A stretch of DNA of 64,000 nucleotides, from contig JAGDAX010000014.1 of the NCBI GenBank assembly GCA_017848335.1, positions 4,560-68,559 of the forward strand, in the 5' to 3' direction. The notes under the pieces are model-generated. The model had not been told where the DNA came from, ran no database searches, and saw nothing but the letters and a program-made list of their open reading frames with translations. Every line of letters starts with the position of its first letter. Position 1 is the first letter of the stretch. Made by a program: the position numbers and the translations under genes. The stretch comes from Clostridia bacterium. Lineage in GTDB: Bacteria; Bacillota; Clostridia; UBA1212. Below are positions 34,794 to 59,187 of the stretch, one piece after another.

Positions 34794-35120
34794 AAAAAAT
34801 ACCTCCTTGGAGATTTCAATCAGGAGGTATTATATCAGTTTTGGAAAAATAGTACACTCAAAAATTGAATAGTTTTGGATCGGTTTGGATCGGTTTGGAC
34901 CGATATTTCCGGATAAGTGTTCACGAGATATTCACAGGATTTCTTAGGTCTGACAGCATCATCGGACAAGTGAAATAGTTTGTGCTGTCAGTGATGTATG
35001 TGATTATCACAACGAGGAATATAACAATTGCAGGATGTTGACATATAATATAATGACAAAGAAGTCATTTAAGCATAAAAGACCTAAATGGCTATAATAC
35101 AATGCATGCGGAGGATTATT

Positions 35121-35963
35121 ATGAACGTTAGACTGATTACATTGGATTTACTGTCTGAATTCCAAGCGAAACTTATTGATGACGAAAAAAGCAAATATAC
35201 TATCGAAAAGTATCTGCGCGATGTTAGGCAATTTATGGTCTTTTCTGAACAAAAGAATGTAGACAAGGCACTCGTAGTGTCATACAAGGCTATGTTAAAA
35301 GACAGTTATACAGTTGAAAGCGCTAATTCCATGCTGGCGTCGATAAATGCATTCTTCAGATTTGTCGGCTGGTTGGATATTATCGTAAAACAATACAGAG
35401 TACAGAAAAAAGTTTTTTGTGAAGAAGAGAAGGAGCTCACTCGTGAAGAATATCTTCGCCTTGTTCGAGCGGCAGAACATCAACACAACGAAAGATTGTC
35501 GCTCCTTTTGCAAACAATTTGCAGTACAGGAATTCGAATAAGCGAGCTTCAATACATAACAGTTGAAGCCGTACGAACGGGCAAAGCTATTGTTTCTTGC
35601 AAAAATAAAACAAGAAGTATTTTTATTGTTAAGAAGCTCCAAAACCTACTTATTTCATATTGTGAACGCAATTCAATCAAAACCGGACAGATATTCGTTA
35701 CTAAAACAGGAAACCCAATAAATCGCTCAAATGTGTGGCGCGAAATGAAAGCTGTCTGTAAGGAGGCAGGAGTAAATCCACAGAAAGTATTCCCTCATAA
35801 CCTGCGGCACCTTTTTGCAAGAGTTTTCTACGGTATCGAAAAAGATCTTGCAAAGCTGGCTGATATTATGGGACACAGTAACATAAATACCACCAGAATT
35901 TATATTATTGCTACCGGCATTGAGCATAAGAGAAAGATGGAAAATATGAAACTACTAATCTAA
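35121..35963 (+). CDS. tyrosine-type site-specific recombinase/integrase (280 aa, Xer/Cre-size, no arm-binding domain)
   Basis: GGAGG RBS before MNVRLITL. Catalytic signature in order: R (TGIRISEL), H-x-x-R (HNLRHLF), H (GHSNINTT), Y (TRIYI; Tyr codon 35901-35903). Confidence 0.9.
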   Translation: MNVRLITLDLLSEFQAKLIDDEKSKYTIEKYLRDVRQFMVFSEQKNVDKALVVSYKAMLKDSYTVESANSMLASINAFFRFVGWLDIIVKQYRVQKKVFCEEEKELTREEYLRLVRAAEHQHNERLSLLLQTICSTGIRISELQYITVEAVRTGKAIVSCKNKTRSIFIVKKLQNLLISYCERNSIKTGQIFVTKTGNPINRSNVWREMKAVCKEAGVNPQKVFPHNLRHLFARVFYGIEKDLAKLADIMGHSNINTTRIYIIATGIEHKRKMENMKLLI

Positions 35964-35988
35964 AAATAGGCAAATTAAGCGCTTTGAC

Positions 35989-36010
35989 AACATTATGAAT
36001 ATAATGTTGT
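35989..36010. repeat. left inverted repeat of the switch (ACATTATGAATATAATGTTGTA)
   Basis: Perfect 22-bp reverse complement of 36246-36267. Itself made of 10-bp inverted arms ACAACATTAT/ATAATGTTGT (35986-36009) around an asymmetric GAAT core. Confidence 0.9.
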
Positions 36011-36052
36011 AATGATTGGCTGAAATAGTTTAGATATTCATCAACACCGCGG

Positions 36053-36082
36053 TATTATATCACGCAATACCTTTTCTTCGCA
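36053..36082 (-). promoter_or_regulatory. candidate sigma-A promoter inside the switch, currently facing the recombinase gene
   Basis: On the minus strand: TTGCGA (36082-36077), 18-nt spacer ending in TGA, then TATAAT (36058-36053). This gives a perfect extended -10. Confidence 0.45.
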
Positions 36083-36245
36083 AGTTTTTTTACACGCAAA
36101 TCCATTTTTATGAAAAATGAGTGATGGAGAGAATCTACAGCTGATAATTTAAATCAAAATCAACTGTAAGAAATCTGTCACTAATTTCATTTAAATGGCT
36201 AAAAAGCTTTAAATCAAGATGTCTATAGATGAAGGGCGCAGGGGT

Positions 36246-36267
36246 ATACAACATTATATTCATAATG
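36246..36267. repeat. right inverted repeat of the switch (TACAACATTATATTCATAATGT)
   Basis: Perfect reverse complement of 35989-36010. The central core is ATTC, i.e. opposite orientation to the left site. Confidence 0.9.
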
Positions 36268-36363
36268 TATTCATTTGACTTTCTTACAAGTCTTTTTTAA
36301 AAGCAATTTCAATAAAAAACAGAAAACTACTGATTCCGGTGATTTAAAAAGAAAGGAAAAACT

Positions 36364-38538
36364 ATGAAAACCACCAAGTTTAAGTGCTTTTTTTTCGTTT
36401 TTTTGATGCTCTTGCTTCTCTGTTCAGGTATGACGTTAAGCAACTTTTTTGCTGCTGATGTACCTAACAGAGTTTTTTCTTCTCTGGCCATAGCAGAAGC
36501 AGGAAGCACAATAGAAATACCAATATTAATCGACAATAATACCGGCTTTGCAGGTATGGGCCTTGTGTTTAAGTATGATTCAACAAAAGTCCTGCCATTG
36601 GCCATTAAAACTTCCGGAAGTATTTTTAACGGAGGCATTGAAAATGATATCGGCAGATTTGATGGATTATTTTCAGTGAACTTAAGCGGAATTGATGACG
36701 AAACAGACAACGGACTTTTGTTCACTATCACTTTTCATGTAAATGAATCTGCTGACGGAAGTACCATTATTAACGTCAGTTATGATCAAGAAAACACATT
36801 TGATGAATCGATTGAAGATGTTGCTCTCTTTTGCGAAGATATCAGTTTGACAATTCAAAACGACTTTGGAGATATGCCTGTACTCCGGCTCTCGTCCTCC
36901 CCGGTATACGCAGGGGAAAATGTGAAAATTACAGGTTCATTTGCTAAAGCAGGATTGTTAGATGAAGCTGAAATTATCTTGTCCTTTGATTCCTCTGCTT
37001 TTGAGTATGTCTCAATGAACGCTTTAAATGGTTCAATTGCTATCTCAAATATTATTTTTACGGAAAACAACTTAAGATTTCGAATGACGGTTACATCACC
37101 CATAGCTGGAGATGACTTGTTTGTTTTAACATTACACGCCAACCCGTCTGCCACCGGTAATTATTCTGTAACCGGTTACTCAAAGTTCATGTCAATTATT
37201 GAAGGCAATGTCACTGTTAATTCTCTTGACAGTATTGCAATAATAAGAAGCGATTCAGACATGAGTGCGCTGCAGCACGAATCTCTGGTTATTCCGGTAT
37301 ATCTGGAGAATAATCCCGGACTAATGGGATATAAGCTTACCATTAAGTATAATCCAACGATTATGACGCCTCTTTCTGTTGCAAACAGTGGTGTTTTCAC
37401 AGGAACATTTGATGACAATATAGGAATTCATACAGATTATTTTGACGTTAAATGGTATGGTACTGAACAGGAAACACAAAATGGTAAATTATTTGACATT
37501 ACGTTTAGAATCGATACTGATGAGTATTGTGTTCCTACGGTTTTAATAGAATACTCTCAACCTGATACTTTCAATGAGGAATACCAAGATGTTGCTATGA
37601 ATTGCAGAAGCGTGAAAGTCCTAGTTAATCCGAACCTTAGGCCTGAACTGAAGTTTTCGGGTGCATCTCTGACCTTGCACGATAATATCGCAATCAATTT
37701 TAAGGCTGATAGGAAGTTGTTTACGGATCTGGGGTATTCTGATCCTTTTGTAATATTTACCATGAATGGTGTAGAAACAACAGTTCATAAATATCGAATA
37801 ATTGATGACAAGGTGGTTTTTGATTTCAACAATATTGCTCCTCATAAGCTGAATGACACCGTCTATGTCACATTATATGCCACATACTCAGGCGAGGAAA
37901 CAATAAGCATGACACGCGAATACAGTGTCGCAACATACTGCTACAATATGCTTACTAAATATTCAACAGATGAGTATTCAAAGCTGCGCACATTGCTAGT
38001 GAATCTCTTAAATTATGGCGAATCGTCTCAAATATACGCTAACTACAAAACCGATGCTCTTGTGACAAAGGACTTAACACCGCTTCAAAAGATGTGGGGA
38101 ACGCAAGAATCTCCTTCACTGAAAACAGTCTACAATCCTGCATACACCGTCCTTGATTCACCATCCGTTCAATGGGAAGGCGTAGGCCTGAATTTAACAA
38201 ACTCTGTTGCAATGAGATTCAGGATCACGACAGCCGGCATCGCGGGTTTATCAGTTAAGGTGTCCGGTTCATCGGGTGGCGAATGGATAATCAATAATAC
38301 ATCTTTTGTACCGACTAATGGCGGGTATTATGTTTACTTTAACGGTTTGAATGTTGCTCAACTGAGCGAACCGGTTTATCTTACGGTTTATGATGGCAAC
38401 GTACCTGTCAGCAATACAATATGTTACAGTGTTGAATCATATGCATACGCAAATCAGAATGATTCAGATCAAAAGCTTTCGGATTTAGTTATTTCTATGA
38501 TGAATTACGGGAATTCTGCGTATGCATATGTGCATTGA
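36364..38538 (+). CDS. secreted protein with three cohesin-like modules and a duplicated C-terminal domain
   Basis: Signal peptide (KCFFFVFLMLLLLCSG). Cohesin-like blocks at about nt 36475-36861, 36877-37224 and 37231-37626 (e.g. AGSTIEIPILIDNNTGFAGMGLVFKYD...NGLLFTITFHV). C-terminal ~300 aa is an internal duplication ending ...LLNYGESSQIY / ...MMNYGNSAYAY. Confidence 0.8.
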   Translation: MKTTKFKCFFFVFLMLLLLCSGMTLSNFFAADVPNRVFSSLAIAEAGSTIEIPILIDNNTGFAGMGLVFKYDSTKVLPLAIKTSGSIFNGGIENDIGRFDGLFSVNLSGIDDETDNGLLFTITFHVNESADGSTIINVSYDQENTFDESIEDVALFCEDISLTIQNDFGDMPVLRLSSSPVYAGENVKITGSFAKAGLLDEAEIILSFDSSAFEYVSMNALNGSIAISNIIFTENNLRFRMTVTSPIAGDDLFVLTLHANPSATGNYSVTGYSKFMSIIEGNVTVNSLDSIAIIRSDSDMSALQHESLVIPVYLENNPGLMGYKLTIKYNPTIMTPLSVANSGVFTGTFDDNIGIHTDYFDVKWYGTEQETQNGKLFDITFRIDTDEYCVPTVLIEYSQPDTFNEEYQDVAMNCRSVKVLVNPNLRPELKFSGASLTLHDNIAINFKADRKLFTDLGYSDPFVIFTMNGVETTVHKYRIIDDKVVFDFNNIAPHKLNDTVYVTLYATYSGEETISMTREYSVATYCYNMLTKYSTDEYSKLRTLLVNLLNYGESSQIYANYKTDALVTKDLTPLQKMWGTQESPSLKTVYNPAYTVLDSPSVQWEGVGLNLTNSVAMRFRITTAGIAGLSVKVSGSSGGEWIINNTSFVPTNGGYYVYFNGLNVAQLSEPVYLTVYDGNVPVSNTICYSVESYAYANQNDSDQKLSDLVISMMNYGNSAYAYVH

Positions 38539-38630
38539 CACATATAAAAGAATAAAATGACCCATTAGAACAGTATAAAATTATGCAAGAAATTATGAAT
38601 AAATATGTATTTAGTACGGAGGAAAAGCTT

Positions 38631-41600
38631 ATGAAAAAAACAGCCTTGAGATTGCTGAGCATAGGTTTGGCGATAATAATGCTTGTTTCGGTTTTGCCGC
38701 TGAATGTGTTGGCAGTGAAAACTTCGTTGCAAGAAATCAATCTTTTTAGGGCAGAGATATATGCAAATGGTAAAAAAGCAACAAATACCAAAAGTTTTGT
38801 GGAGTATATTTCAGTCAATCAAGCAAATATATTTTCGAGTGTTGGCAACATATCAACACCTGTTCAAGTGTACTACAAGTTAGCTAAGGAAGACTTTTGG
38901 TATCAGTTTGGATTAAAAGAGTGGGAGGCGATACATGTTTTTGCTTCGCCTTCACATATTACTGAAACGGGTGAAGTGACCATTTACGAGTATTATGAAG
39001 CCATTTTGATGGACTTGATTAACAGAAATACTAATGGTACAAACGAAACACTTAAAATGGTCGATGGTGTGGCGAGTGGGGTTTACAACTCGATTTATAG
39101 TTCTTATACGAAAACATTTACGACTTTGATGCAACAAGTTTTTGCTGAGAATCCCGATATTACTGTTGAAACAATTACAACAGCAAAAACATCAAAAACA
39201 GTTAAAAATTTGTTATCAAAAGTAACAGATGAAAACTCTTACAAAAAGACCTCTGCTCTTCTCGACTTGTTAGAAACCTGTGGAAATGTTAGAGATGCTA
39301 TAAAAACCGTTTCTGCGTACAGTGCGCTATGTGATTATTTTGACGGGACAAAAGAGGTTTTGTCGTTTATTGCTAACGATCAAAACTCAACAAATCCAGT
39401 TCAATTAAAGATAGCAGCGAATAACATATTGTCCTGCTTTGATGAATCTGTTCAATCCTCGTTGAAATCGCTGGAAATTGGCGGGATAGAAATGGCAATC
39501 AAGACTGCCGGTCAAGTTATCGACAACAGTTATTCAAAAGCAATAAGTTCTAATCCGTATTTACTTGCTGCATATTTGACGGCAAAAACTGGACGGTTTA
39601 TTTTTAATGAGTTATGTAGTGTAGATAAACAAGCTGCAACGTATTATCAAATTGAGGCCAATGCCATATTTGAAAACGAATTAAAGCGTGTAGTTGATGA
39701 GTTTAGAAGTCGTTTCAATGCAAGTAAAACCGAGAAAGATGCGAAAGCATATCTTCGTGCCGTACAGATGTTCGAAGATAATATTCTTTTAGGTTGTGAT
39801 TATGTTTACGAATTTGCCTCGACAAATATCAATACAGTTTGGAATACTATTTTTGGATTAAATAAAAAGCACCAAGAGGCACTTAATGAAATCATATCTC
39901 TCAAGGGGTTGTATCAGATGGCTTTTGAAGACTATGAGAATTCTCACGTTTCAAAAGCATGGAGACAAACGTATGGTATTACTGCTGAGGAAGAGGATAT
40001 TATTAATGAAACAAACGATAATGGAACTGCTCTTTCTGGAGAAAAGGTGTTCGCTGATAAAATTGCAGTCCTAAAAAAGGAATACCCACAAGGAAAATAC
40101 TGGAATCAATATAATGGATTGGATTCGAATGGTGTAGCAAAAGCGGGAGATATAATTTGCAGTGGGACTGCGTCTTATGATAGTAAACAATGTATTTCTC
40201 ATGGGTACTGTGCATACAAAGGAAAATCATGTAGTTGTAAGTGCGGATACTTCCACGGTTGGCAATGCTTTGGATTTGCAAATCTGATGGCTTATAAAGT
40301 GTTTGGATCATATGCAACTAATGGGTATACTGCAAGCGATGTCAATTCAAGCAAGGGCTGGGTGTATTATAAATCTGTCTCGTCGTATTACGTTGGCGAT
40401 GTTGTAAGAATTAATAATAATCACTCAATCTTCATTACAAAAATAATAGGCGCTGGGATACAATATGTGGATTGCAATAATTCCGGTCCGTGCAAAATCA
40501 ACTGGAATAACACTATCACCGCCGAGAACTTAGCAAAGAAAACGACTTTTGTTGTCAGAAACACTAATTCATCGCTATCATCACTAAGTGGTTCAAGTGT
40601 TAACGGAAGTACGGTTAGTAACACTGTTTCTTATAAAATATCAAGCGCAAAAGCAACATCAATCACCAATAAATCTGCAACTATTTCTGTTGGTTTAAAT
40701 CAAAAGGCATCTGTTTCAAAGTGGACTTATTTTGTAAGCACAAACAAAAATGCGCTGGTTAATCTGGACGGAACAAGCGGAAGCACACATAAATCGACCA
40801 ATACTGTTACATGCCGTCGTATTCTTGATTACCAAGCCAACCCGAAATATGAGAAATCTGATACTTTCACAATTTCAAAACATCAGGGAGAAGATTTGAA
40901 ACCGAATACCACTTATTACTATAAAGTAACCGTATCTATAAATGGTAAGTGGTATTCAACAGGCGTTCAAAGCTTCAAAACCACCAATTATCTGCCGGAC
41001 GCTGCAAGCCTTCGTGTTTCGCGGGATAGCCAGGTGGTTGGTGTAGGCGATTCAATCACGCTTCTTTGGGATTCCACAAAGAATACAGATACCTACAGCA
41101 TTGAAGTTAAAGACGTTAATGGTATAACTGTTCAAAAGAAGACGAATATTAAAGGATTAACATACACTTTAGATCCTATTTCTGAAAGCGGCGCATATAC
41201 CGCTACAATCACCTCCGTTAATGCGGTAGGTGAGAAGTTCGGAACGAGTGCAGAATTCACCGTAGAGCCCAATCGTCTTGTGCGGTTTTATGACACGATT
41301 TCGGATGAGATGATTTACGAAGAATCTGTTCCATATGGGCACAGTGCGAATGCCCCGAAAGCGCCTACTCATTATGGACATACGTTCAGTCAATGGAACA
41401 GAAGTTATGAAAAAATCAAAGATAGCGGTGAAGGCGATGAACACATCATTACTGTTAATACGGTTTATGATCTGAACACGTATACCGTTAGATTCATTGA
41501 TGCATTTACCAATGAAATAATCAGTTCGCAATCGGTCAAGTATAAAAAATCCGCTGTTGCGCCGGTATCATTGCCGGAGCACAAAGGTTTTGAGTTTATC

Positions 41601-44600
41601 TCATGGGACAAAGGATATTCAAGTATTGAAAAGGATACGGATATCTATACTGTCTATCAGTGGGAGGATCCGGATCATCTTGCTATTCTAACAATTGATG
41701 GTGTAACACGCACAATTCCGAAAGAAAACAGCGAAGAAAATGTTGGATACGATGTTTCGGTAACGATCAGCAATTCTGCCGATAGAATTATCAGCGGAAG
41801 AGTGGTTGCCGTATTAAAATCTGCGGAGGGGACTATTCTTTCGCAGTCCGAATCTGCCGCTTTCGCGGTGGATAAGGCGCCGATGGATGCATCGGGTTCG
41901 ATTATCGGAACGACGGATAGGCAAGTAACCTTTACAGTCTTGTATGATGATTTTGCACCTCAAATCGAATTGTACCTGATCAACGACTATGACAAACTGG
42001 GGCAATTGGCACCTATGGTCAGCACTGATATTGATAATACCGGTGTATGGTCCGGATTGATTCGATTTGAAGGTGATGAACCTCCGGTTCAGTCTGACCC
42101 CGAAAAAGGTATCACGGTAGCTCTTGAAGGTCCCTTCAATGAGACAATCAAGTATTATCGTTATCGTATCCTTGAAAAGTCATATGAAACTTCTGCCTCC
42201 ACAGCCGGATACACGCAGTCAGGATATACAAAGGTGAACGCGCAGCAAAAGAGCGTAGATTATGTTGTCTCTTGGCCTTCCGGGTTTTTGAAGACAAATT
42301 CACTTTATACGCAGTATAACAAACAGCCCGTTACGGCTTCTGAAACAGCAACGCAGATTATAGAGGTCAGTTCGCCGACAACCAAGGGATATATTTATTA
42401 TCATTGGTGCATGGGGACGTATGCAAACGGTCCGATTAACCGTGGAATCAACGGCTCTAAGACTTCAACTTACAAGCAGTTCCATGCGTTCTATACCACC
42501 TCCGCAGTTTCATTTGATTCATCGGCGAAGGCTTATAAAAAATCAGTTTCCGGAACTTGTAAGGATACTTATTGGTGGTATGGCCTCACTCCGGATAAAA
42601 GCGGTAACATAATCGTTAAAACTCAGAATTATACGGTATATGACAAACTATACAATTACTATTCCGAGTATTCTGAATGGATTCCATATGTCGGTGAATG
42701 TCCTCTGACAAATGGGGCGTTGGTTGATGGTGATGCCAACAAAACTTATGAGGTGGAAACAAAGACAGAGACCAATGATTATTATTGCTATAAGTATTGC
42801 ATAAATAATACTCCTGAAGAACCTGTGTTTTCTGATGATGATCCCAGGGTTGTTAGTATCTCTGGTACGATTAGTTCGAAATTTGCAGCAAAGACAGCGA
42901 CCGTATGGATTTACAAGTATTCTCAGGCATCGGATTACACAACTGAATATGTTGGAAACACCATCGTTGGATGCGAAGGTCAATTATCTATTGAGCGTGC
43001 CGTGTTAAGAGAGGCTCCTTCTGTGCAAAGCGGTGACTATACTATTGTTGTATCTGTGCCGGGACAGGAACAAGCACTTCATCTTGGAACAATCAAAGCA
43101 CCAAAAGCAAAATATACAGTTGTTTTTGAAGATTATTTCGGCAATGTTATTTCTTCGCAAGAAATAACAGAAGGAGACTCAGCATTTGTTCCCGATTCTT
43201 CGCTTACTTGCGCTCCGGCCGGGTACCGTTTTGCCCGTTGGTCAGAATCTGTTGTCAACGTTAGGGGCAATTTAACTGTAAAGCCGGAGTTTGAAAAGAT
43301 GACCTTTGTCGTTGCATTTGTTGATTGGAATGATCAAAGCGTTATTTTGAACGAAAATATTGAATATGGATCAGAGTTGGTTTCTATAAGCTCACCTGCG
43401 GAAATCGAGGGTTATGATACTGAATGGGTCGTCCAAATCGACGATCAGTATTTAACTATCGAGGAGTTTACAGATAGCGGATACACAGTGACAGGTAATA
43501 TGGTAGTTACAACAAGAAATACGCCTAAGGATTACTCTGTCATCTTCCTGGATGCCGATCCCGAAGTTGTTCTTGAAAACAAACTACAAAATATTGATAG
43601 CGATAAGCTTTCGCCAATTGGTATTTCAGAGAACACAAATAATATTGAGGTTTTGGCAAACACCACTGTAACTTATGGTATCGGTATTGATTATTCCGCC
43701 GTTATTGAACTGGAAGAAAACGAAGATTACGTTTTCATGGGATGGATCAATGCTGCAACAGGGGAAGCATTAGAGTCTGCTGATATAACCGAATCGGTTG
43801 TTCTATACCCACGTTATGTCTTTGCTGAGACAGTTGAAATACCCGTTGCATCTATGGATAACGGAGAATATTCAGAAACGATTGAAGTTGAATTAACTCA
43901 GGAATTTGAAAGCGCTTCCATTTGGTATACATTGGATGGAACTGATCCGAAGATATCTAACACAGCAATGGAGTATACAGGAACGATAATAATCGATCAT
44001 TCGTGTGTTCTTCGGTATTATTCGAGCGCTCTCGGATTCAATGATAGTGATGAAGGATATAGGGCTTTTGCTGTCAACCTTTCTGATGATAATCGTTATC
44101 ATGTTGTTACGGTGTATGCAGTTGCAAATGTTGGACCCCTGGTGAAAGGGGAACCCTCGATTGGTCTGGTAAAAGAAGGAATTACATTACCAAACAGTTT
44201 GTTCTCCGATGCATTTGAAGGATATGCTTTTAATGGGGTTTATAAAGATTTTGACTGTAGCGAATTATTTGTTCCCGAGGCAGAAGAAATTACAGACTCC
44301 TTAGCTTTCTATGCACATTATGAGCCAATCGAGTATACTGTACATTTCTATGGGTTTGATGGAAGCTCACTTTCAACACAGACAGTTTCTTACGGAAACA
44401 AAGCTGAAGCGCCCATTGCTCCGGAAGTTGACGGATATGTGCTTGCAGGATGGGATGGTGATTACTCGTTTGTTGACGACGATCTTGACGTTTTCGCTCG
44501 ATATATTACTCCTGACGAATACGCGACAATCAGCCTTGATAAAAAGGCTATCACATTGAATGTTGGCGCATCTTACGCAAACCTTCAGACGACAATTACC

Positions 44601-45203
44601 CCGACCATCCATTCCAATTACGAGATCGAATGGTATTCCTCAAATGACGATATTGCCTCCGTAGATGAAAACGGTGTGATTACAGCGCTCTCGATTGGAT
44701 TCACAACGATTACAGCCAAACTTCCTTACACTGGTGAAACTGCAGAAGTTACTGTTAAAGTTGCTTACGATTTGGATCGTGAAATTGTCCTTTTACAGGG
44801 TGCCACAATGGGATTTGACGTGAATCGCAATCTTCGATTAACTCCAAATAATGATCTGACTGTAGATGGGGTTTTGAGATGGTTTGAAAATGCAAATCTT
44901 TCTATTTGTAAAGCTGATGGAACTGAACTTTCAGGAGATGATTTGGTCGGGACCGGATGTGTCGTCAGGCTTATGAATGATGGCGATTTAATCGACTTTT
45001 CGATAATCATTTTGACCGGTGATTACAATGGAGATGGCAAAATCAACAACAGAGACGTGGTAATGCTGAACCAGCTGATTATGGATAAACGCGATGCGGA
45101 TATCTGGCAAATAATGGCTCTTGATGTGAACGGTGACGGATATATAAATAATCGTGACAGCGCGATGCTGGCCAGATACCTTGTAGGTAAAGAAACTCTT
45201 TAG
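38631..45203 (+). CDS. giant secreted multidomain protein (2,190 aa): helical N-domain, Cys/His papain-like module, FN3, Listeria-Bacteroides repeats, BIG2, C-terminal dockerin
   Basis: GGAGGA RBS before MKKTALRLLSIGLAIIMLV (signal peptide). GWQCFGFA...NNNHSIFI module. At least five Y-x-V-x-F...G-(Y/F)-x-F-x-x-W repeats. BIG2-like block ISLDKKAITLNVG...ITAKL. Dockerin GDYNGDGKINNRD / DVNGDGYINNRD at 45018-45200. Confidence 0.9.
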   Translation: MKKTALRLLSIGLAIIMLVSVLPLNVLAVKTSLQEINLFRAEIYANGKKATNTKSFVEYISVNQANIFSSVGNISTPVQVYYKLAKEDFWYQFGLKEWEAIHVFASPSHITETGEVTIYEYYEAILMDLINRNTNGTNETLKMVDGVASGVYNSIYSSYTKTFTTLMQQVFAENPDITVETITTAKTSKTVKNLLSKVTDENSYKKTSALLDLLETCGNVRDAIKTVSAYSALCDYFDGTKEVLSFIANDQNSTNPVQLKIAANNILSCFDESVQSSLKSLEIGGIEMAIKTAGQVIDNSYSKAISSNPYLLAAYLTAKTGRFIFNELCSVDKQAATYYQIEANAIFENELKRVVDEFRSRFNASKTEKDAKAYLRAVQMFEDNILLGCDYVYEFASTNINTVWNTIFGLNKKHQEALNEIISLKGLYQMAFEDYENSHVSKAWRQTYGITAEEEDIINETNDNGTALSGEKVFADKIAVLKKEYPQGKYWNQYNGLDSNGVAKAGDIICSGTASYDSKQCISHGYCAYKGKSCSCKCGYFHGWQCFGFANLMAYKVFGSYATNGYTASDVNSSKGWVYYKSVSSYYVGDVVRINNNHSIFITKIIGAGIQYVDCNNSGPCKINWNNTITAENLAKKTTFVVRNTNSSLSSLSGSSVNGSTVSNTVSYKISSAKATSITNKSATISVGLNQKASVSKWTYFVSTNKNALVNLDGTSGSTHKSTNTVTCRRILDYQANPKYEKSDTFTISKHQGEDLKPNTTYYYKVTVSINGKWYSTGVQSFKTTNYLPDAASLRVSRDSQVVGVGDSITLLWDSTKNTDTYSIEVKDVNGITVQKKTNIKGLTYTLDPISESGAYTATITSVNAVGEKFGTSAEFTVEPNRLVRFYDTISDEMIYEESVPYGHSANAPKAPTHYGHTFSQWNRSYEKIKDSGEGDEHIITVNTVYDLNTYTVRFIDAFTNEIISSQSVKYKKSAVAPVSLPEHKGFEFISWDKGYSSIEKDTDIYTVYQWEDPDHLAILTIDGVTRTIPKENSEENVGYDVSVTISNSADRIISGRVVAVLKSAEGTILSQSESAAFAVDKAPMDASGSIIGTTDRQVTFTVLYDDFAPQIELYLINDYDKLGQLAPMVSTDIDNTGVWSGLIRFEGDEPPVQSDPEKGITVALEGPFNETIKYYRYRILEKSYETSASTAGYTQSGYTKVNAQQKSVDYVVSWPSGFLKTNSLYTQYNKQPVTASETATQIIEVSSPTTKGYIYYHWCMGTYANGPINRGINGSKTSTYKQFHAFYTTSAVSFDSSAKAYKKSVSGTCKDTYWWYGLTPDKSGNIIVKTQNYTVYDKLYNYYSEYSEWIPYVGECPLTNGALVDGDANKTYEVETKTETNDYYCYKYCINNTPEEPVFSDDDPRVVSISGTISSKFAAKTATVWIYKYSQASDYTTEYVGNTIVGCEGQLSIERAVLREAPSVQSGDYTIVVSVPGQEQALHLGTIKAPKAKYTVVFEDYFGNVISSQEITEGDSAFVPDSSLTCAPAGYRFARWSESVVNVRGNLTVKPEFEKMTFVVAFVDWNDQSVILNENIEYGSELVSISSPAEIEGYDTEWVVQIDDQYLTIEEFTDSGYTVTGNMVVTTRNTPKDYSVIFLDADPEVVLENKLQNIDSDKLSPIGISENTNNIEVLANTTVTYGIGIDYSAVIELEENEDYVFMGWINAATGEALESADITESVVLYPRYVFAETVEIPVASMDNGEYSETIEVELTQEFESASIWYTLDGTDPKISNTAMEYTGTIIIDHSCVLRYYSSALGFNDSDEGYRAFAVNLSDDNRYHVVTVYAVANVGPLVKGEPSIGLVKEGITLPNSLFSDAFEGYAFNGVYKDFDCSELFVPEAEEITDSLAFYAHYEPIEYTVHFYGFDGSSLSTQTVSYGNKAEAPIAPEVDGYVLAGWDGDYSFVDDDLDVFARYITPDEYATISLDKKAITLNVGASYANLQTTITPTIHSNYEIEWYSSNDDIASVDENGVITALSIGFTTITAKLPYTGETAEVTVKVAYDLDREIVLLQGATMGFDVNRNLRLTPNNDLTVDGVLRWFENANLSICKADGTELSGDDLVGTGCVVRLMNDGDLIDFSIIILTGDYNGDGKINNRDVVMLNQLIMDKRDADIWQIMALDVNGDGYINNRDSAMLARYLVGKETL

Positions 45204-45218
45204 AGGAAGGTGTTTATA

Positions 45219-45332
45219 ATGAACATTTTTGAATTCCCAATCATTGAGATATTTTGCTTTAATACAGAAGCCGATATAGTTACAGCCAGTAATCAAGGCG
45301 ATGGCGTCGTTTTACCGGATGATAACTGGTGA
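45219..45332 (+). CDS. unlisted small ORF (37 aa): MNIFEFPIIEIFCFNTEADIVTASNQGDGVVLPDDNW
   Basis: AGGAAGG RBS 8 nt upstream of the ATG. Begins 16 nt after the giant gene's stop and ends 46 nt before the island terminator. Below the 60-aa cutoff of the ORF track. Confidence 0.4.
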   Translation: MNIFEFPIIEIFCFNTEADIVTASNQGDGVVLPDDNW

Positions 45333-45378
45333 TTCATAATAGCAGGCGTTAAAACTTTAACATTATCATATATAATCA

Positions 45379-45422
45379 AGCCGGGACAGATGCTTTATTC
45401 ATTGCTTTGTCCCGGCTTTTTA
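45379..45422 (+). terminator. Rho-independent terminator closing the island operon
   Basis: AGCCGGGACA / TGTCCCGGCT 10-bp stem followed by TTTTT. Confidence 0.8.
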
Positions 45423-45448
45423 TTTAAGAAGCTGTTGGGCTTTTCAGT

Positions 45449-45556
45449 AATTTTGTGATGAGATGAGGATAAAAAGCCGGAATTTTGTGATGAAACGGCT
45501 CGAATTATCCGGAATTTTGTGATGAAACAGCCCAAATTATATGTAATTTTGTGATG
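45449..45556. repeat. 32-bp period tandem repeat x4 (AATTTTGTGATGAAAC...)
   Basis: AATTTTGTGATG recurs at 45449, 45481, 45513 and 45545 (exact 32-bp spacing). Ends 5 nt from the aminotransferase stop. Confidence 0.9.
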
Positions 45557-45560
45557 GCGG

Positions 45561-47848: not shown

Positions 47849-48128
47849 GGTAATTCTCCGTATGCGGCTTAATCAAAAGCAAATGCGGAGGCCGGGAATA
47901 AACCCTGTCTCCGCACCAAACTATAAGTGTATCACCAAAGATGTGTGATGGCAAGAAAAAAATGAAGGGTGAGTGCCGCTTTGCTGCTGCCGTAAGGATA
48001 GAGGCCGGAGGCCAGAGACTTCGGCGGCCGGTGAGTTCACGGTGCCGGGTGCCGCTTCACGGGCACTTACACGCGTTTCACAGACGCATCCACGCGCTTC
48101 GCAGGAGATTTACTGCGTTTCCCGCATT

Positions 48129-48581
48129 TTACCGCCGCGCCAGAGCGGCGTCCGTTATATTCCCGGCCTTCACGGCAAGCCTTTTGGCGGCCAGGCCGTC
48201 CTGGATCTGCCCGAAAATATGCTCCTCCAAACCGTTGTCGGCAAGGAGCTTTTTGAATCTGTACAGCGTGGTCGCGTCGGGCACTCTCTCCTCAAGGAAA
48301 TTCAGGTGCATAAATCTGCGCATGGCGTAGCTGTCGTATATCGCGTCCTCAATGCCTTCGTCCGAGAGGCCAAACCACCGTTGAAGCAGGTACATCCGCA
48401 GCATGGTCTCGATGGATTTTGCCCTGCGCCCGCGCGCGTTCCTGTAGTAAAACGGCTTGATCTCCGCGACAATTTCGTCCCAACTGACGATTTCATCCAT
48501 CGCGTCAAGAAACTCCTCGCGCTTTGTTTTGCGTTCGCGGTTACTGTATTCAAGGTCCGTAAAGCTCAGCTGATTTCCCAT
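48129..48581 (-). pseudogene. IS5-family transposase, N-terminal fragment only (150 aa; DDE domain absent)
   Basis: MGNQLSFTDLEYSNRERKTKREEFL...ETMLRMYLLQRWFGLSDEGIEDAIYDSYAMRRF...VPDATTLYRFKKLL aligns with the InsH-type N-terminal domain (DUF772). The similarity ends where VDATII would begin, and no catalytic domain follows. Confidence 0.8.
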
Positions 48582-48894
48582 ACCCGCAGCCTCCTTCCTC
48601 AGTACTTGTATTGTACCACAAAAAGGCCGGCTTGTCGCGCTCAAAAGCCCGATTTTGTGCCGGAATTCGCGCAAAACAGAGAAAAACCCGATAATTCGCG
48701 GGAATTTCCGGGAATTATCGGGAAAATGCATGATCGGGTGATTTTAAAAGCCGGCGGTTTGCGTGAGCAACGGGCGTCGCGCGGGCTTCACGGGCAATGC
48801 TTCGGGCCGCGTGAAGCCTTCACGGATCACGAGGAGAAGGGAAGCTCGCTCAGCCTTCAGGGCAGCCATTCAAGCGTCTGCTTCCTGGGCCCGG

Positions 48895-57885: not shown

Positions 57886-58716
57886 CTACAACACTATAAC
57901 CAGTTCGATCATTTGTTCGCACACAGATGAGTCGCCGATACTCACATCGTACTGTCTTACGACGGCTGTTTGATTGTTTTCAAGTATCGTGAGCAGTGTA
58001 TTTTTGATTTCGTAACGATACGTGCAGCCCTCCTTTTCAATGCTCTTGAGCTTTTGCATGGCATTTTCGTCTATCATTTTCTCTGTGTCGTCGGGAAGAG
58101 TCAGATCGTCGGGAACACGCTCTGTCATTGTGGACGCATATCCGATAATATCGCCGTCATAGTTCAAAGTTACGGAAAAGGAATCCGTGGCTGTGAATCC
58201 TGCCACTTCTTGCGAGAAACAGACTGCGGTATATTTTGAATATGGATCGTCAGACACATTAATGATCGTGTATGCGGATATATTCCTCAGTGAGGAAGCA
58301 AACTGCTTAGCCTTTTCTATACATTCGGAATCGGATAATGCTTGAACTTCAGAAGCGGCTTTTCTGGGAAAGATGAAGAAAGACAGCTTTCCGTCGGTTT
58401 CAGTCATAAACAATCCTTCATCACTCATATATTCATACTCCAAATAAGTGTTATATTTTCTTTTGGACGTGCCGGAGTATGTTCCTTTAACATCGTGACC
58501 GTCTATTGAGATCGTCATTTCTCCCGGCGCATCCGGGGATTCGCTGACAGTACAGAATTGAAAATCCGCTTCCGCTATGATGAAGTCGGCATTGTCCGAT
58601 ATATCGGACGCGTAAACCGATAACGTTTTGTTGTTTCTATACGGGTCGGTCGCACATCCGAAGGCAGAACCTGCAACCAGTACGACGGTAATTACTAATA
58701 TGATCATCTTTTTCAT
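57886..58716 (-). CDS. hypothetical lipoprotein (276 aa) in a low-GC islet
   Basis: AAGGAG RBS before MKKMIILVITVVLVAGSAFGC (lipobox). The local sequence is visibly more AT-rich than its neighbours. Confidence 0.75.
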   Translation of the reverse strand: MKKMIILVITVVLVAGSAFGCATDPYRNNKTLSVYASDISDNADFIIAEADFQFCTVSESPDAPGEMTISIDGHDVKGTYSGTSKRKYNTYLEYEYMSDEGLFMTETDGKLSFFIFPRKAASEVQALSDSECIEKAKQFASSLRNISAYTIINVSDDPYSKYTAVCFSQEVAGFTATDSFSVTLNYDGDIIGYASTMTERVPDDLTLPDDTEKMIDENAMQKLKSIEKEGCTYRYEIKNTLLTILENNQTAVVRQYDVSIGDSSVCEQMIELVIVL

Positions 58717-59041
58717 GGTTTGTGTCTCCTTATTCATAATTGTTCATAAATCAGAAAGTTGGCACGCCGAAAATCTTCAGCAGCTTAAGTCTACCGTATC
58801 ATTTCGTAACAGTCTTACTACAAAACGTTACACTATCCGGCACACAGCACACCTGGCACACAGAGCGCAGCACATGGAACACAGAGCGCATACGGTGATT
58901 TGCGGTCTTTGAAACACTGCAGTCATTGAAACGATGAGAGCAAAGCAAAACCGGCGGAAGGTGGAAATGCCGGGCGAAAAACGTAATATTCCTGCGGAGC
59001 TGCCGTGCGGCAAACCGTTTTATTCGATAAACACTGAAAAC

Positions 59042-59187
59042 CCGAAAAAAACGATATTCCGCGACGATCTCGAAAAGCCCCGAAAAAAAACGATATTCCG
59101 CGACGATCTCGAAAAGCTCCGAAAAAAACCGACATTCCGCGATACCTCCGAAAAACCGCGATACCCCCGAAAAACCGCGATAGCCCC
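59042..59187. repeat. tandem repeat: ~38 bp x2 (GAAAAAAACGATATTCCGCGACGATCTCGAAAAGCYCC) then ~19-29 bp x3 (GAAAAACCGCGATA-type)
   Basis: Read directly. A further CGGCKTTTYC-type array follows at about 59250-59335. Confidence 0.9.

What the first reader, a model, noticed from the sequence alone, without database searches (positions are those of the whole stretch)
38631..45203. Giant dockerin-bearing multidomain protein encoded next to its likely cohesin partner
Seen in translation: the 2,190-aa protein ends with a duplicated calcium-loop segment, GDYNGDGKINNRDVVML...DVNGDGYINNRDSAMLARYL (nt 45018-45200), which is the type-I dockerin signature.

Upstream of the dockerin it contains:
- an FN3-like block (LKPNTTYYYKV);
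- at least five Listeria-Bacteroides-type repeats, e.g. YTVRFIDAFTNEIISSQSVKYKKSAVAPVSLPEHKGFEFISWD and YTVHFYGFDGSSLSTQTVSYGNKAEAPIAPEVDGYVLAGWD;
- a chitobiase/Fn3-associated-like block (IWYTLDGTDP);
- a BIG2-like block.

The adjacent upstream gene supplies three cohesin-like modules, and I saw no terminator between the two genes.

Inference: a self-contained two-gene cohesin-dockerin complex with no carbohydrate-active catalytic domain, more adhesin-like or cell-surface-weapon-like than cellulosomal. It is carried on a mobile island and placed under a DNA switch. I am not aware of this combination being described.
Basis: partly seen in the sequence, partly recalled or inferred. Interest (0 to 1): 0.75.

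Follow-up and report, generated by a model that had tools for sequence, protein, structure and literature searches.

The report
Switchable cohesin-docked giant cell-wall hydrolase
A gut Clostridia bacterium carries a foreign 10.7-kb DNA island encoding a 2,190-residue stalk-like secreted protein with a cell-wall-cutting enzyme at its tip and a dockerin plug at its base, next to a three-socket cohesin partner, and a flippable DNA segment seen in both orientations in natural samples sits just upstream and probably controls both genes.

Summary
Window 38631-45203 encodes a 2,190-aa secreted protein ending in a type-I dockerin. It also has fn3, InlB-B/Flg_new repeats, CHB_HEX_C and Big_2. The upstream 724-aa protein has three cohesin modules.

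The N-terminal 680 aa are a helical domain plus a divergent Cys-rich CHAP-fold hydrolase with an invariant Cys-His-Asn. Five relatives keep the same stalk and dockerin but carry classical CHAP or Peptidase_M23 heads. The head is therefore an exchangeable cassette on a conserved stalk: the body is 90-99% identical to the nearest relative and the head 15-37% or non-homologous.

All relatives keep cohesin genes adjacent, including a membrane-anchored single-cohesin protein that the window lacks.

The DNA switch is real. A 235-bp segment lies between 27-nt inverted repeats next to a Xer-like tyrosine recombinase. One metagenome contig has it flipped, and three contig ends from two further samples lie at the repeat arms. 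The best promoter match faces away from the operon, so this copy is probably OFF.

The island is compositionally foreign, but I found no evidence that it is mobile now.

Best reading: a phase-variable, cohesin-dockerin-assembled peptidoglycan hydrolase, probably aimed at other bacteria's walls. Enzyme activity, binding and target are untested.

The parts
34800..45560 (.). Low-GC island (31-47% GC in 150-nt windows, against about 53-63% in the flanks). It lies between the aminopeptidase M18 gene (start 34793, minus strand) and the aminotransferase gene (stop 45561, minus strand).
   Evidence: Composition profile and fine GC bins. The same context occurs in six metagenome contigs.
35121..35963 (+). 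Tyrosine recombinase, 280 aa, XerC/XerA/XerD-like, with no arm-binding domain. R...HxxR...H...Y motifs can be read in the sequence (TGIRISEL, HNLRH, GHSNI, TRIY). Probable invertase of the switch.
   Evidence: Pfam Phage_integrase 91 bits. NCBIfam Xer-type hits lie below the equivalog cutoffs. PDB best hits are 4a8e XerC-like and 5hxy XerA. The exact protein is found on 6 contigs. Sequence.
35985..36011 (.). Left recombination site (inverted-repeat arm): ACAACATTAT-GAAT-ATAATGTTGT, two palindromic half-sites around an asymmetric 4-nt core.
   Evidence: the repeat finder I1. The motif occurs only twice in the window, with 0 expected by chance. Contigs L017 and L019 end exactly at 36011.
36012..36246 (.). 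235-bp invertible segment.
   Evidence: L020 carries it flipped: its bases 6469-6523 match window 36268->36214 on the minus strand at 100% identity. L015, L016 and L018 carry it as in the window.
36054..36083 (-). Best promoter match in the switch region: TTGCGA, 18 nt, TG-n-TATAAT (extended -10). It faces away from the operon in this copy. After inversion it would face the operon, about 160 nt upstream of the cohesin ATG.
   Evidence: Promoter scan, 10 of 12 matches plus TG. This is a consensus match only, and such matches are not enriched overall in this AT-rich region.
36247..36273 (.). Right recombination site: ACAACATTAT-ATTC-ATAATGTATT, with the core reverse-complemented relative to the left site.
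   Evidence: Contig L036 (same sample as L019) begins at 36239.
36364..38538 (+). Scaffold protein, 724 aa:
- signal peptide;
- cohesin 1 (aa about 35-172);
- cohesin 2 (about 173-294, divergent);
- cohesin 3 (about 295-430);
- two tandem repeats of about 145 aa of unknown function (aa about 429-724).
No TM helix, dockerin, SLH or sortase signal.
   Evidence: Pfam. Orthology to the L001 and L002 scaffolds at 31-37% identity over all three modules. Profile against PDB cohesins. Internal repeat at E = 2e-8. The C-terminal part has no PDB or PHROG hit.
38631..45203 (+). Giant dockerin-bearing hydrolase, 2,190 aa (NCBI MBP1586922.1, named only 'InlB B-repeat-containing protein').
38631..38717 (+). 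Sec-type signal peptide (MKKTALRLLSIGLAIIMLVSVLPLNVLAV). It is conserved at DNA level with L001 and L002 (about 82%).
   Evidence: Sequence; blastn.
38718..40034 (+). All-helical N-terminal domain of about 430 aa, function unknown. It is shared only with the two CHAP-headed relatives (32-34% identity).
   Evidence: No Pfam or PHROG hit. No further homologues. The AF2 model is unusable (pLDDT 43.9, all helices).
40035..40562 (+). Divergent Cys-rich CHAP-fold hydrolase module. Predicted triad: Cys546 (nt 40266-40268), His598 (nt 40422-40424) and Asn616 (nt 40476-40478), in 2,190-aa numbering.
   Evidence: Family of 707 representative clusters. Invariant QC...H...N. 7 of 29 members hit Pfam CHAP. 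AF2 pLDDT 83.9. Foldseek top hits are CHAP enzymes and phage lysins. Family members co-occur with SH3_3, Peptidase_M23 and a dockerin.
40668..45017 (+). Stalk of about 16 beta-rich modules: two Fn3-like modules, about 6 InlB-B/Flg_new repeats, about 470 aa unassigned, CHB_HEX_C/Fn3_assoc, Big_2 and a pre-dockerin module. DNA homology to relative L001 starts abruptly at 40668.
   Evidence: Pfam; repeat HMM; blastn breakpoint. DNA identity is 88-96% (mostly 92-96%) over 40668-43667 and 59-79% after that.
45018..45200 (+). Type-I dockerin with two calcium-loop repeats (DYNGDGKINNRD and DVNGDGYINNRD).
   Evidence: Pfam PF00404, 43-45 bits. It is the only dockerin in the six-frame scan of the window.
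45380..45425 (+). Probable operon terminator: a 9-bp GC-rich stem (GCCGGGACA / TGTCCCGGC) with a 19-nt loop, followed by TTTTTATTT.
   Evidence: Read from the sequence. The consensus scanner missed it because of the long loop.

Best explanation
The island encodes a phase-variable extracellular complex.

Regulation: a Xer-like tyrosine recombinase flips a 235-bp segment between two 27-nt inverted sites. In one orientation a strong extended -10 promoter inside the segment reads into a two-gene operon. In the orientation seen in this window it reads away, so this copy is predicted OFF.

Products: the operon makes (i) a secreted scaffold with three cohesin sockets and (ii) a 2,190-residue protein with four parts in order:
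- a C-terminal dockerin that plugs into those sockets;
- a long stalk of about 16 beta-sandwich modules;
- a CHAP-fold Cys/His peptidoglycan amidase/peptidase at the far N-terminal tip;
- a helical domain of unknown role in front of the CHAP module.

Up to three stalks would mount on one scaffold. The enzymatic head is an exchangeable cassette: relatives carry classical CHAP or M23 heads on the same stalk. The whole cassette has been passed horizontally between gut and rumen Clostridia.

Most likely role: cutting the cell walls of other bacteria, either for antagonism or for wall scavenging, rather than host adhesion or housekeeping autolysis.

Shown here: domain content, conserved cohesin/dockerin synteny, head swapping, foreign composition, and DNA inversion in natural samples.
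Inferred: cohesin-dockerin binding and stoichiometry, promoter location and the ON/OFF assignment, enzymatic activity and its target.
For: Domains.

CHAP head:
- 707-cluster family with invariant Gln-Cys, His and Asn.
- 7 of 29 members reach Pfam CHAP.
- Confident AF2 model (pLDDT 83.9).
- Top PDB matches are all CHAP enzymes: Ly7917, PlyGRCS, Gsp amidase, S. saprophyticus CHAP, PcsB.
- Top viral matches are lysins and endolysins.
- Family members co-occur with SH3_3 wall-binding domains, Peptidase_M23 and a dockerin.

Functional coupling: all five relatives (L001, L002, L003/L004, L005, L006; 28-67% identity) keep cohesin genes adjacent to the giant gene, even where gene order differs. No terminator was found between the scaffold and giant genes.

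Head swapping:
- CHAP in P0001 and P0002, M23 in P0003 and L005.
- Against P0001, protein identity is 15-37% over aa 1-700 and 90-99% over aa 701-1700.
- DNA homology starts sharply at 40668, and the signal-peptide DNA is conserved.
- The central 3 kb is 88-96% identical at DNA level, mostly 92-96%.

Switch:
- Inverted repeat next to the recombinase; the site is unique in the window with 0 expected by chance.
- L020 carries the segment flipped; L017 and L019 end exactly at the left arm; L036 starts at the right arm.
- The best promoter match is inside the segment and faces away from the operon.

Horizontal origin: the island is 31-47% GC in a host of about 59% GC. L002 is likewise a low-GC island at a different chromosomal site. 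L001 sits in a low-GC genome.
Against: - The window's own CHAP-like module does not reach any Pfam threshold, and structural TM-scores are modest (0.3-0.37).
- No activity data exist.
- No immunity-like gene is conserved in the cassettes. One would be expected for a classical toxin.
- The window lacks the membrane-anchored cohesin found in every relative. Surface attachment here is unexplained, and the complex may be released.
- Promoter-like matches are not enriched in this AT-rich region (15 found against 14.5 expected). Weaker plus-strand matches exist in the present orientation, so the ON/OFF assignment could be reversed or leaky.
- The function of the helical domain is unknown.
- Which cohesin binds the dockerin is untested.
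Confidence: 0.62

Rival explanations
1. Phase-variable adhesin or aggregation factor. On this reading the stalk of Ig-like, Fn3 and InlB-B repeats binds host mucus, epithelium or other cells. The cohesin-dockerin pair is only the anchoring device. The CHAP-like head is accessory, for example for local wall remodelling during export, or inactive. This would work like C. difficile CwpV.
For: The repeat modules (Flg_new, Big_2, fn3, CHB_HEX_C) are typical of adhesins. NCBI names the protein an InlB B-repeat protein. Phase variation by an invertible element upstream of a large surface protein parallels cwpV (PMC2784873).
Against: The catalytic Cys-His-Asn is invariant across the module family. Every relative retains a peptidoglycan-hydrolase head of one kind or another, CHAP or M23. 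That argues the enzyme is the selected function and the stalk the carrier. In the nearest relative the stalk is 90-99% identical while the head has been replaced.
Confidence: 0.15
2. Self-directed autolysin. On this reading the complex remodels or splits the producer's own wall (cell separation, sporulation, passage of large structures). The helical domain would act as an autoinhibitory clamp, as in the coiled-coil plus CHAP protein PcsB.
For: PcsB is among the structural matches (4cgk). The helical-domain-then-CHAP order resembles PcsB. No immunity gene is present.
Against: - The cassette is rare: three full-length relatives among 5.8 billion clusters, plus two in GTDB species genomes.
- It is accessory and horizontally acquired and switched stochastically. 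None of this is expected for housekeeping division enzymes.
- An enzyme held at the end of a stalk of about 1,450 residues, anchored by its far end, is poorly placed to act on its own wall.
- M23-headed relatives lack the helical domain.
Confidence: 0.1
3. The recombinase is the integrase of a mobile island, and the inverted repeats are only a hairpin or terminator after its gene. On this reading there is no regulatory switch.
For: The Pfam and PHROG labels are 'phage integrase'. The region is compositionally foreign. The left arm is itself a perfect palindrome.
Against: - One contig carries the 235-bp segment inverted at 100% identity, and three contig ends from two other samples lie at the arms (two exactly at the last base of the left arm, one 8 nt inside the right arm).
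- The shared exact part of the two arms is about 22 nt, by my reading of the arm sequences. That is shorter than the final assembly k-mers I assume were used, so reads should span the flipped junction.
- The recombinase is a 280-aa Xer-type enzyme without an arm-binding domain.
- No flanking direct repeats, tRNA or empty site were found.
Confidence: 0.03

Closest known systems
Non-cellulosomal and 'uncommon' dockerin proteins: Ruminococcus flavefaciens RflaF_05439 (two NlpC/P60 papain-like modules plus X-dockerin, reported to bind the cell-surface cohesin ScaE; PMC3573020)
   Same: A papain-fold Cys peptidase/amidase is carried on a dockerin and mounted on a cohesin at the surface of a gut Clostridium, with no carbohydrate-active domain.
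   Different: - That protein is one of more than 220 dockerin proteins feeding a true cellulosome. Here the pair is a dedicated, self-standing cassette.
- The head here is CHAP-fold, N-terminal, and sits at the tip of a stalk of about 1,450 residues.
- Heads are swapped between relatives (CHAP or M23).
- The anchors in relatives are TM helices, not sortase substrates.
- The locus here is phase-variable.
C. difficile cwpV switch with the RecV tyrosine recombinase (PMC2784873); fimS-type invertible promoters
   Same: A short invertible DNA element flanked by inverted repeats lies just upstream of a large surface-protein gene. It is flipped by a tyrosine recombinase and gives ON/OFF subpopulations.
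   Different: - From memory, in cwpV the promoter lies outside the element and the OFF state works by termination. Here the best promoter lies inside the element (fimS-like), and no orientation-specific terminator was found.
- The recombinase here is encoded directly beside its site.
- The cargo is a cohesin-dockerin complex.
Bacteriolysins and phage lysins (lysostaphin and zoocin A M23 enzymes; CHAP endolysins such as Ly7917 and PlyGRCS)
   Same: Secreted CHAP or M23 peptidoglycan hydrolases that act from outside on Gram-positive walls. They are modular, with exchangeable catalytic heads.
   Different: - Those are small (25-50 kDa) free enzymes with SH3-type wall-binding domains, and they usually have a linked immunity or wall-modification gene.
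- Here the enzyme is the tip of a protein of roughly 240 kDa (my estimate from its length), tethered by a dockerin.
- The window's protein has no SH3 domain, and no conserved immunity gene is seen.
Polymorphic toxin / contact-dependent systems (CdiA, WapA, LXG, and PT-TG proteins, some of which carry cohesin or dockerin modules; PMC13483458)
   Same: A large conserved filament or stalk with a sharply bounded, exchangeable effector domain. They are horizontally mobile, and cohesin and dockerin have been noted as 'trafficking' modules in some.
   Different: - The effector here is N-terminal, not C-terminal.
- It targets the wall rather than the cytoplasm.
- No adjacent immunity gene and no dedicated secretion system are present (Sec signal peptide only).

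Membership tests
Type-I dockerin (PF00404) | Duplicated ~22-residue calcium-binding F-hand segment scoring above the Pfam gathering cutoff | tested here: met
   43.4-45.5 bits against a cutoff of 22.9, covering profile positions 2-56 of 57. Both loops read DxNGDGxINNRD.
Type-I dockerin (PF00404) | Calcium-dependent binding to a cognate cohesin | not testable with these tools
   Needs ITC or ELISA, or a multimer structure prediction. Only conserved gene adjacency is available.
Cohesin (PF00963) | Cohesin beta-sandwich module recognised by a family profile | tested here: met
   Modules 1 and 3 score 31.6 and 28.7 bits against a cutoff of 24.1. Module 2 scores 18.6 bits, below the cutoff. A profile of 11 modules from this family hits only solved cohesins (2xdh E = 6e-11; 3l8q, 4uyp, 3ul4, 1g1k).
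Cellulosome / amylosome | Dockerin-borne carbohydrate-active enzymes and a substrate-binding CBM on the scaffoldin | tested here: not met
   No GH, PL, CE or CBM family is detected in the giant protein or the scaffold. The CHB_HEX_C_1 hit (an accessory domain of chitobiases/hexosaminidases) is not a catalytic CAZyme module. The only catalytic module found is CHAP-fold.
CHAP domain (PF05257; NlpC/P60-CHAP papain-like clan) | Match to the family sequence profile | tested here: inconclusive
   The window's module gives no Pfam hit at E <= 1. However, 7 of 29 members of its family hit CHAP (best E = 6.5e-6) and 1 hits NLPC_P60. NCBI names one member, P0004, 'CHAP domain-containing'. An hhalign comparison to P0001's CHAP is weak (E = 0.022).
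CHAP domain (PF05257; NlpC/P60-CHAP papain-like clan) | Papain-like alpha+beta fold with the Cys at a helix N-terminus, followed by His and a polar third residue | tested here: met
   AF2 pLDDT 83.9 and pTM 0.81, with helix 92-105 starting at the Gln-Cys. Foldseek top hits are CHAP enzymes at probability about 1.0, though TM is only 0.3-0.37. Q-C, H and N are invariant in 29 sequences.
CHAP domain (PF05257; NlpC/P60-CHAP papain-like clan) | Peptidoglycan amidase or endopeptidase activity | not testable with these tools
   Needs zymography or muropeptide analysis.
Invertible promoter switch (inverton; fimS / cwpV type) | Inverted repeats flanking a short intergenic segment next to a site-specific recombinase gene | tested here: met
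   27-nt arms, 93% complementary, 235 nt apart, starting 22 nt after the recombinase stop codon. The site motif occurs only at these two places, with 0 expected by chance.
Invertible promoter switch (inverton; fimS / cwpV type) | Both orientations present in natural populations | tested here: met
   The window, L015, L016 and L018 have one orientation and L020 the other. Contigs break at the arms in L017, L019 and L036.
Invertible promoter switch (inverton; fimS / cwpV type) | Orientation-dependent transcription of the downstream genes | tested here: inconclusive
   The best -35/-10 match (10 of 12 plus TG) is inside the segment on the minus strand. It is only a consensus match. No orientation-specific terminator was found. 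Needs RNA data.
Polymorphic toxin system | Conserved delivery region with a sharply bounded, variable effector domain | tested here: met
   The head is 15-37% identical or non-homologous while the stalk is 90-99% identical to P0001. The DNA breakpoint is at 40668. Heads are CHAP, Cys-rich CHAP or M23.
Polymorphic toxin system | Cognate immunity gene immediately adjacent to the toxin domain | tested here: not met
   No gene beyond the anchor, scaffold and giant is shared by the six loci. The 37-aa ORF after the giant gene is not conserved.
Integrative mobile genomic island | Atypical composition relative to the host | tested here: met
   31-47% GC against about 59% in the flanks, with sharp edges at about 34.75 kb and 45.55 kb.
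Integrative mobile genomic island | Integrase with flanking att direct repeats, a tRNA or other target site, and occupied and empty sites among strains | tested here: not met
   No flanking direct repeats and no tRNA in the window. All six contigs from this organism that reach the site carry the island at the same place. The recombinase is Xer-type and lies beside the inverton.

The most novel reading that the evidence does not exclude
This could be a previously unrecognised kind of interbacterial weapon in Gram-positive gut anaerobes. A cohesin-dockerin 'launcher' would hold several long stalks of roughly 50 nm on a scaffold. Each stalk would be tipped with an exchangeable peptidoglycan-cutting head (CHAP or M23) that lyses neighbouring cells on contact. 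The cassette would be traded horizontally between species and fired stochastically through a DNA inversion switch. In effect this would be a lytic, contact-dependent analogue of the cellulosome aimed at bacterial cell walls instead of plant cell walls.
Probability: 0.3. Interest if true: 0.85.

Novelty: new variant of a known kind. Interest (0 to 1): 0.64.

Why it matters
Cohesin-dockerin pairs are known mainly as the glue of cellulosomes and amylosomes. Their non-cellulosomal occurrences are mostly unexplained. This locus gives a coherent, testable case of a dedicated, horizontally traded cassette that uses the pair to mount a giant stalked cell-wall hydrolase with swappable heads. In this organism the cassette has been placed under a recombinase-driven ON/OFF switch whose flipping is visible in metagenomes.

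If the target is other bacteria, this would add a new delivery principle to Gram-positive antagonism in the gut. It would also supply a natural modular chassis (scaffold, stalk, exchangeable lysin head) for engineered targeted lysins.

In addition, it gives a function to a 707-cluster family of Cys-rich CHAP-like modules that Pfam largely misses.

Tried and rejected
- **Exact look-ups that found nothing:** the 724-aa scaffold, the 291-aa form of the recombinase, the aminotransferase and the aminopeptidase in the cluster look-up. The 280-aa recombinase form worked.
- **N-terminal helical domain:** no Pfam or PHROG hit. An alignment-based homologue search returned nothing. The AF2 model on a 3-sequence alignment had pLDDT 43.9, so no fold search was attempted.
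- **Single-sequence PDB searches:** the CHAP-like module, the scaffold C-terminus, the unassigned stalk region (ORF-numbering aa 1020-1510) and the cohesin region gave nothing meaningful. The profile of the CHAP-like family also missed PDB CHAPs by sequence. Only the structure comparison recovered them.
- **JGI metagenome scans:** neither the recombination site nor the giant-protein family gave close matches.
- **Switch in relatives:** no comparable inverted repeat or recombinase lies upstream of the cassettes in L001, L002 or L003. The switch is specific to this lineage.
- **Empty-site search for the island:** none found.
- **Known defence systems:** no PADLOC hit.
- **cwpV-style mechanism (terminator in the OFF orientation):** considered, but no terminator-like site was found on either strand of the segment.
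- **Cohesin-dockerin multimer modelling:** not possible with the tools available.
- **Scripting errors:** my first dockerin regex was mis-specified and found nothing. I replaced it with an HMM scan.

Full report
**1. What is in the sequence**

The window is about 59% GC, but 34.8-45.56 kb is a sharply bounded low-GC island. It measures 36-44% GC in 2-kb windows and 31-47% in 150-nt windows. The island lies between an M18 aminopeptidase gene and an aminotransferase gene, both on the minus strand. All its genes are on the plus strand:
- a tyrosine recombinase (35121-35963);
- a 724-aa cohesin protein (36364-38538);
- the giant ORF.

The giant frame is open from 38583. That start agrees with public gene calls (MBP1586922.1, named 'InlB B-repeat-containing protein [Clostridia bacterium]') and with the N-termini of the homologues.

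**2. Check of the observation**

Positions in this section use the 2,206-aa ORF numbering; subtract 16 for the 2,190-aa protein.

Pfam confirms the following in the giant protein:
- Dockerin_1 at the extreme C-terminus (nt 45018-45200; 43-45 bits against a cutoff of 22.9);
- Big_2;
- CHB_HEX_C_1/Fn3_assoc;
- an fn3 module;
- several Flg_new (Listeria-Bacteroides/InlB-B) repeats.

An HMM built from the four clearest repeats recovers those four and finds one further weak copy. With the Pfam hit at 1690-1742 (26.0 bits against a cutoff of 27) this makes six repeats, so 'at least five' holds.

In the neighbouring protein, cohesin modules 1 and 3 pass Pfam's cutoff and module 2 is sub-threshold. 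All three are collinear with the three modules of the orthologous scaffolds in two related loci (31-37% identity). A profile of eleven modules from this family hits only solved cohesins in the PDB (best 2xdh, E = 6e-11).

No terminator-like site separates the two genes. A GC-rich hairpin followed by a T-run lies after the giant gene (45380-45425). Six-frame scans find no other cohesin or dockerin in the 64 kb.

**3.

The first ~700 residues gave no Pfam hit. A search of 5.8 billion protein clusters found only three full-length relatives (67%, 49% and 35% identity). Two carry a CHAP domain, and the third carries Peptidase_M23 at the same N-terminal position.

The window's protein shares the signal peptide and a helical domain of about 430 aa with the CHAP-headed relatives (32-34% identity). 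ORF residues about 480-675 do not align to their CHAP.

An exhaustive HMMER search with ORF residues 470-690 found a family of 707 representative clusters (184 at E <= 1e-10). The module usually sits right after the signal peptide of large secreted proteins. In an alignment of 29 members, Gln-Cys, Gly-Asp..Arg, His and Asn are invariant. These correspond to Cys546, His598 and Asn616 of the 2,190-aa protein.

Evidence on what the module is:
- 7 of 29 members reach Pfam CHAP and one reaches NLPC_P60.
- NCBI calls one member 'CHAP domain-containing'.
- AlphaFold2 on this alignment gave a confident model (pLDDT 83.9, pTM 0.81).
- Its best PDB matches are all CHAP enzymes: phage lysins Ly7917, PlyGRCS, LysIME-EF1 and PlyPy, the E. 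coli Gsp amidase, S. saprophyticus CHAP and PcsB. Probabilities are about 1, but TM-scores are only 0.3-0.37, partly because of a Cys-rich insertion.
- The best viral matches are lysins and endolysins.
- Close family members combine the module with SH3_3 wall-binding domains, RicinB lectins, Flg_new repeats, a dockerin (P0007) or Peptidase_M23 (P0014).

I conclude that the tip of the giant protein is a divergent CHAP-fold peptidoglycan amidase/peptidase. Activity is inferred, not shown. The helical domain remains unassigned: no homologues were found beyond the two relatives, and its model was unusable.

**4. A conserved cassette with exchangeable heads**

Contexts of the three relatives, and of two more distant ones found in GTDB genomes, all show cohesin genes next to the giant dockerin gene. 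The two distant ones are a goat-rumen Eubacterium MAG and Ruminococcaceae UBA1730. Each cassette contains:
- a small protein with signal peptide, one cohesin, a linker and a C-terminal TM helix, which is an obvious membrane anchor;
- one or more multi-cohesin scaffolds. In L002 and L005 a scaffold ends in its own, different dockerin, which implies hierarchical assembly (giant to scaffold to anchor).

This synteny persists at 28-35% identity and with rearranged gene order. That is the best available evidence that the neighbouring cohesins are the dockerin's partners.

Heads differ between loci. L001 and L002 have classical CHAP, the window has the Cys-rich CHAP-like module, and L003 and L005 have M23.

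Against P0001 the window protein is a mosaic:

| Residues (ORF numbering) | Identity to P0001 |
|---|---|
| 1-700 | 15-37% |
| 701-1700 | 90-99% |
| 1701-2206 | 47-77% |

At DNA level, homology to L001 begins abruptly at 40668, right after the head. It also covers the signal-peptide codons. The central 3 kb is 88-96% identical, mostly 92-96%. L001 sits in a low-GC genome. L002 is, like the window, a low-GC island in a host of about 57-59% GC, at an unrelated chromosomal site. The cassette has therefore moved horizontally, and its head has been replaced by recombination.

**5. How the window differs from its relatives**

- It has no membrane-anchored cohesin anywhere in 64 kb.
- Its scaffold ends in two tandem repeats of about 145 aa of unknown function (25% identical to each other). 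These have no PDB, Pfam or PHROG match. It has no dockerin or TM helix.
- A recombinase and a switch sit in the position occupied by the anchor gene in L001 and L002.

How the complex is retained on the cell, if it is, remains open.

**6. The DNA switch**

Between the recombinase stop (35963) and the cohesin start (36364) lie two 27-nt arms, at 35985-36011 and 36247-36273. They are 93% complementary and 235 nt apart. Each arm is a pair of palindromic half-sites around a 4-nt core. The core is reverse-complemented between the two sites (GAAT against ATTC), as expected for inversion by a tyrosine recombinase. The motif occurs nowhere else in the window, with 0 expected by chance.

The 280-aa recombinase is Xer-like, and R...HxxR...H...Y motifs can be read in its sequence. 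Its exact sequence is found on six metagenome contigs with the same chromosomal context, at 99.4-99.9% DNA identity to the window. Across these contigs:
- L015, L016 and L018 span the switch in the window's orientation.
- L020 continues past the left arm into the reverse complement of 36214-36246 at 100% identity, so the segment is flipped there.
- L017 and L019 end at the last base of the left arm.
- In the same sample as L019, contig L036 begins at 36239, 8 nt inside the right arm.

By my reading of the arm sequences, the exact stretch shared by the two arms is only about 22 nt. That is shorter than the final assembly k-mers I assume were used. On that assumption, the flipped junction must be supported by reads, and the breaks at the arms indicate mixed orientations. 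Inversion in natural populations is therefore shown, subject to that assumption about assembly parameters.

The best promoter match in the region (TTGCGA, 18 nt, TG-n-TATAAT) lies inside the segment on the minus strand (36083->36054). In the window it points away from the operon. After inversion it would sit about 160 nt upstream of the cohesin ATG and face it. I therefore predict that the window copy is OFF. This is consistent with it being the majority orientation (four of the five sequences that read past the left arm). It is an inference from a consensus match: promoter-like matches are not enriched in this AT-rich region, and weaker plus-strand matches exist.

**7. Mechanism and function**

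The best-supported model has these steps:
- Stochastic inversion by the adjacent recombinase turns the operon on.
- Both proteins are exported by Sec.
- Up to three giant proteins dock by their C-terminal dockerins on the three cohesins of the scaffold.
- Each presents a CHAP-fold wall hydrolase at the end of a stalk of about 16 modules. My estimate of its length, tens of nanometres, assumes about 4 nm per Ig-like module.

Five features argue for an accessory, outward-directed function such as lysis or scavenging of other bacteria's walls, rather than housekeeping autolysis or pure adhesion:
- every relative keeps a peptidoglycan-hydrolase head, although the type varies;
- the head is a sharply bounded exchangeable cassette;
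- the cassette is rare and horizontally acquired;
- it is phase-variable;
- the enzyme sits at the end farthest from the anchor.

Three points weigh against the weapon reading. No conserved immunity gene is present. The window's module fails Pfam thresholds. No activity or binding data exist.

**8. Relation to known systems**

- **Dockerin-borne papain-like peptidases.** These are known in R. flavefaciens: RflaF_05439 has two NlpC/P60 modules plus an X-dockerin and is reported to bind ScaE (PMC3573020). They are members of a large true cellulosome.
- **Invertible switches.** Switches upstream of large clostridial surface proteins are known, for example cwpV/RecV (PMC2784873).
- **Polymorphic toxins.** Cohesin and dockerin modules have been noted as trafficking domains in some of them (PMC13483458).

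Full-text searches found no paper that combines cohesin/dockerin with phase variation, or that describes a dedicated cohesin-dockerin cassette for a giant CHAP/M23 hydrolase. I therefore rate this a new variant of known kinds. The parts are familiar. The assembly is not described: anchor, scaffold and stalked hydrolase with exchangeable heads, here rewired under an inverton.

**9.

- The switch claim is upgraded from conjecture to demonstrated inversion.
- 'No catalytic domain, adhesin-like' is corrected to 'CHAP-fold hydrolase head'.
- 'Two-gene self-contained' is qualified by the anchor component present in all relatives and missing here.
- 'Mobile island' is reduced to 'horizontally acquired island with no evidence of current mobility'. 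No att repeats, tRNA or empty site were found.

Noticed in passing
window 45447-45556: Four direct copies of GTAATTTTGTGATG (or GGAATTTTGTGATG) at an exact 32-nt period. They lie at the right border of the low-GC island, immediately after the stop of the minus-strand aminotransferase gene. They could be a protein-binding array or a remnant of the insertion event.
   Followed up: no
window 34874-34905: Tandem decamer TTTGGATCGG, three copies with the last one degenerate, at the left border of the island between the aminopeptidase start and the recombinase promoter region.
   Followed up: no
window 45219-45329 (+): A 37-aa ORF (MNIFEFPIIEIFCFNTEADIVTASNQGDGVVLPDDNW) with a GGAAGG ribosome-binding site. 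It starts 16 nt after the giant gene's stop codon and lies before the terminator hairpin. It has no Pfam, PHROG or PADLOC hit and is not conserved next to the relatives. Its position is that of an immunity or accessory peptide, but nothing supports that.
   Followed up: partly
window 36277-36306: A weak AT-rich hairpin (GACTT-TCTTAC-AAGTC) followed by T6 lies in the fixed leader between the right repeat arm and the cohesin start codon. It could attenuate read-through in both switch states.
   Followed up: no
window about 48113-48731 (-) and 58000-60000: A DUF772 transposase-like ORF lies about 2.5 kb to the right of the island. The label comes from the equivalent gene in L035. A second region of lower GC (0.476) lies at 58-60 kb. 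These hint at further foreign DNA in the neighbourhood.
   Followed up: no
L003 17126-18925 (also L004): Next to the M23-headed cassette lie a GNAT acetyltransferase gene and a gene encoding a TIR plus C-type-lectin protein. The acetyltransferase could be a wall-modifying self-protection factor. This is pure speculation.
   Followed up: no
L002 7184-7197 / 7289-7302: A perfect 14-nt inverted repeat with a 91-nt spacer lies upstream of the anchor cohesin gene in the related island, with no recombinase nearby. Its significance is unclear.
   Followed up: no
L001 4076-6502 (808-aa scaffold): After its three cohesins, this related scaffold carries two copies of a Cys-rich repeat (…CCENGYTGDxYCKDC…GTQHWHTCYYG…) instead of the window's C-terminal repeats or L002's dockerin. 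The scaffold C-termini are as exchangeable as the hydrolase heads.
   Followed up: no
window 40137-40265 (giant aa 503-545, 2,190-aa numbering): The CHAP-like module contains a conserved cysteine-rich insertion (C..C..C.C.CG) just before the catalytic Cys. It is modelled with pLDDT about 78-92. It probably forms disulfides or a metal site and is the hallmark of this 707-cluster subfamily, which Pfam's CHAP model largely misses.
   Followed up: partly
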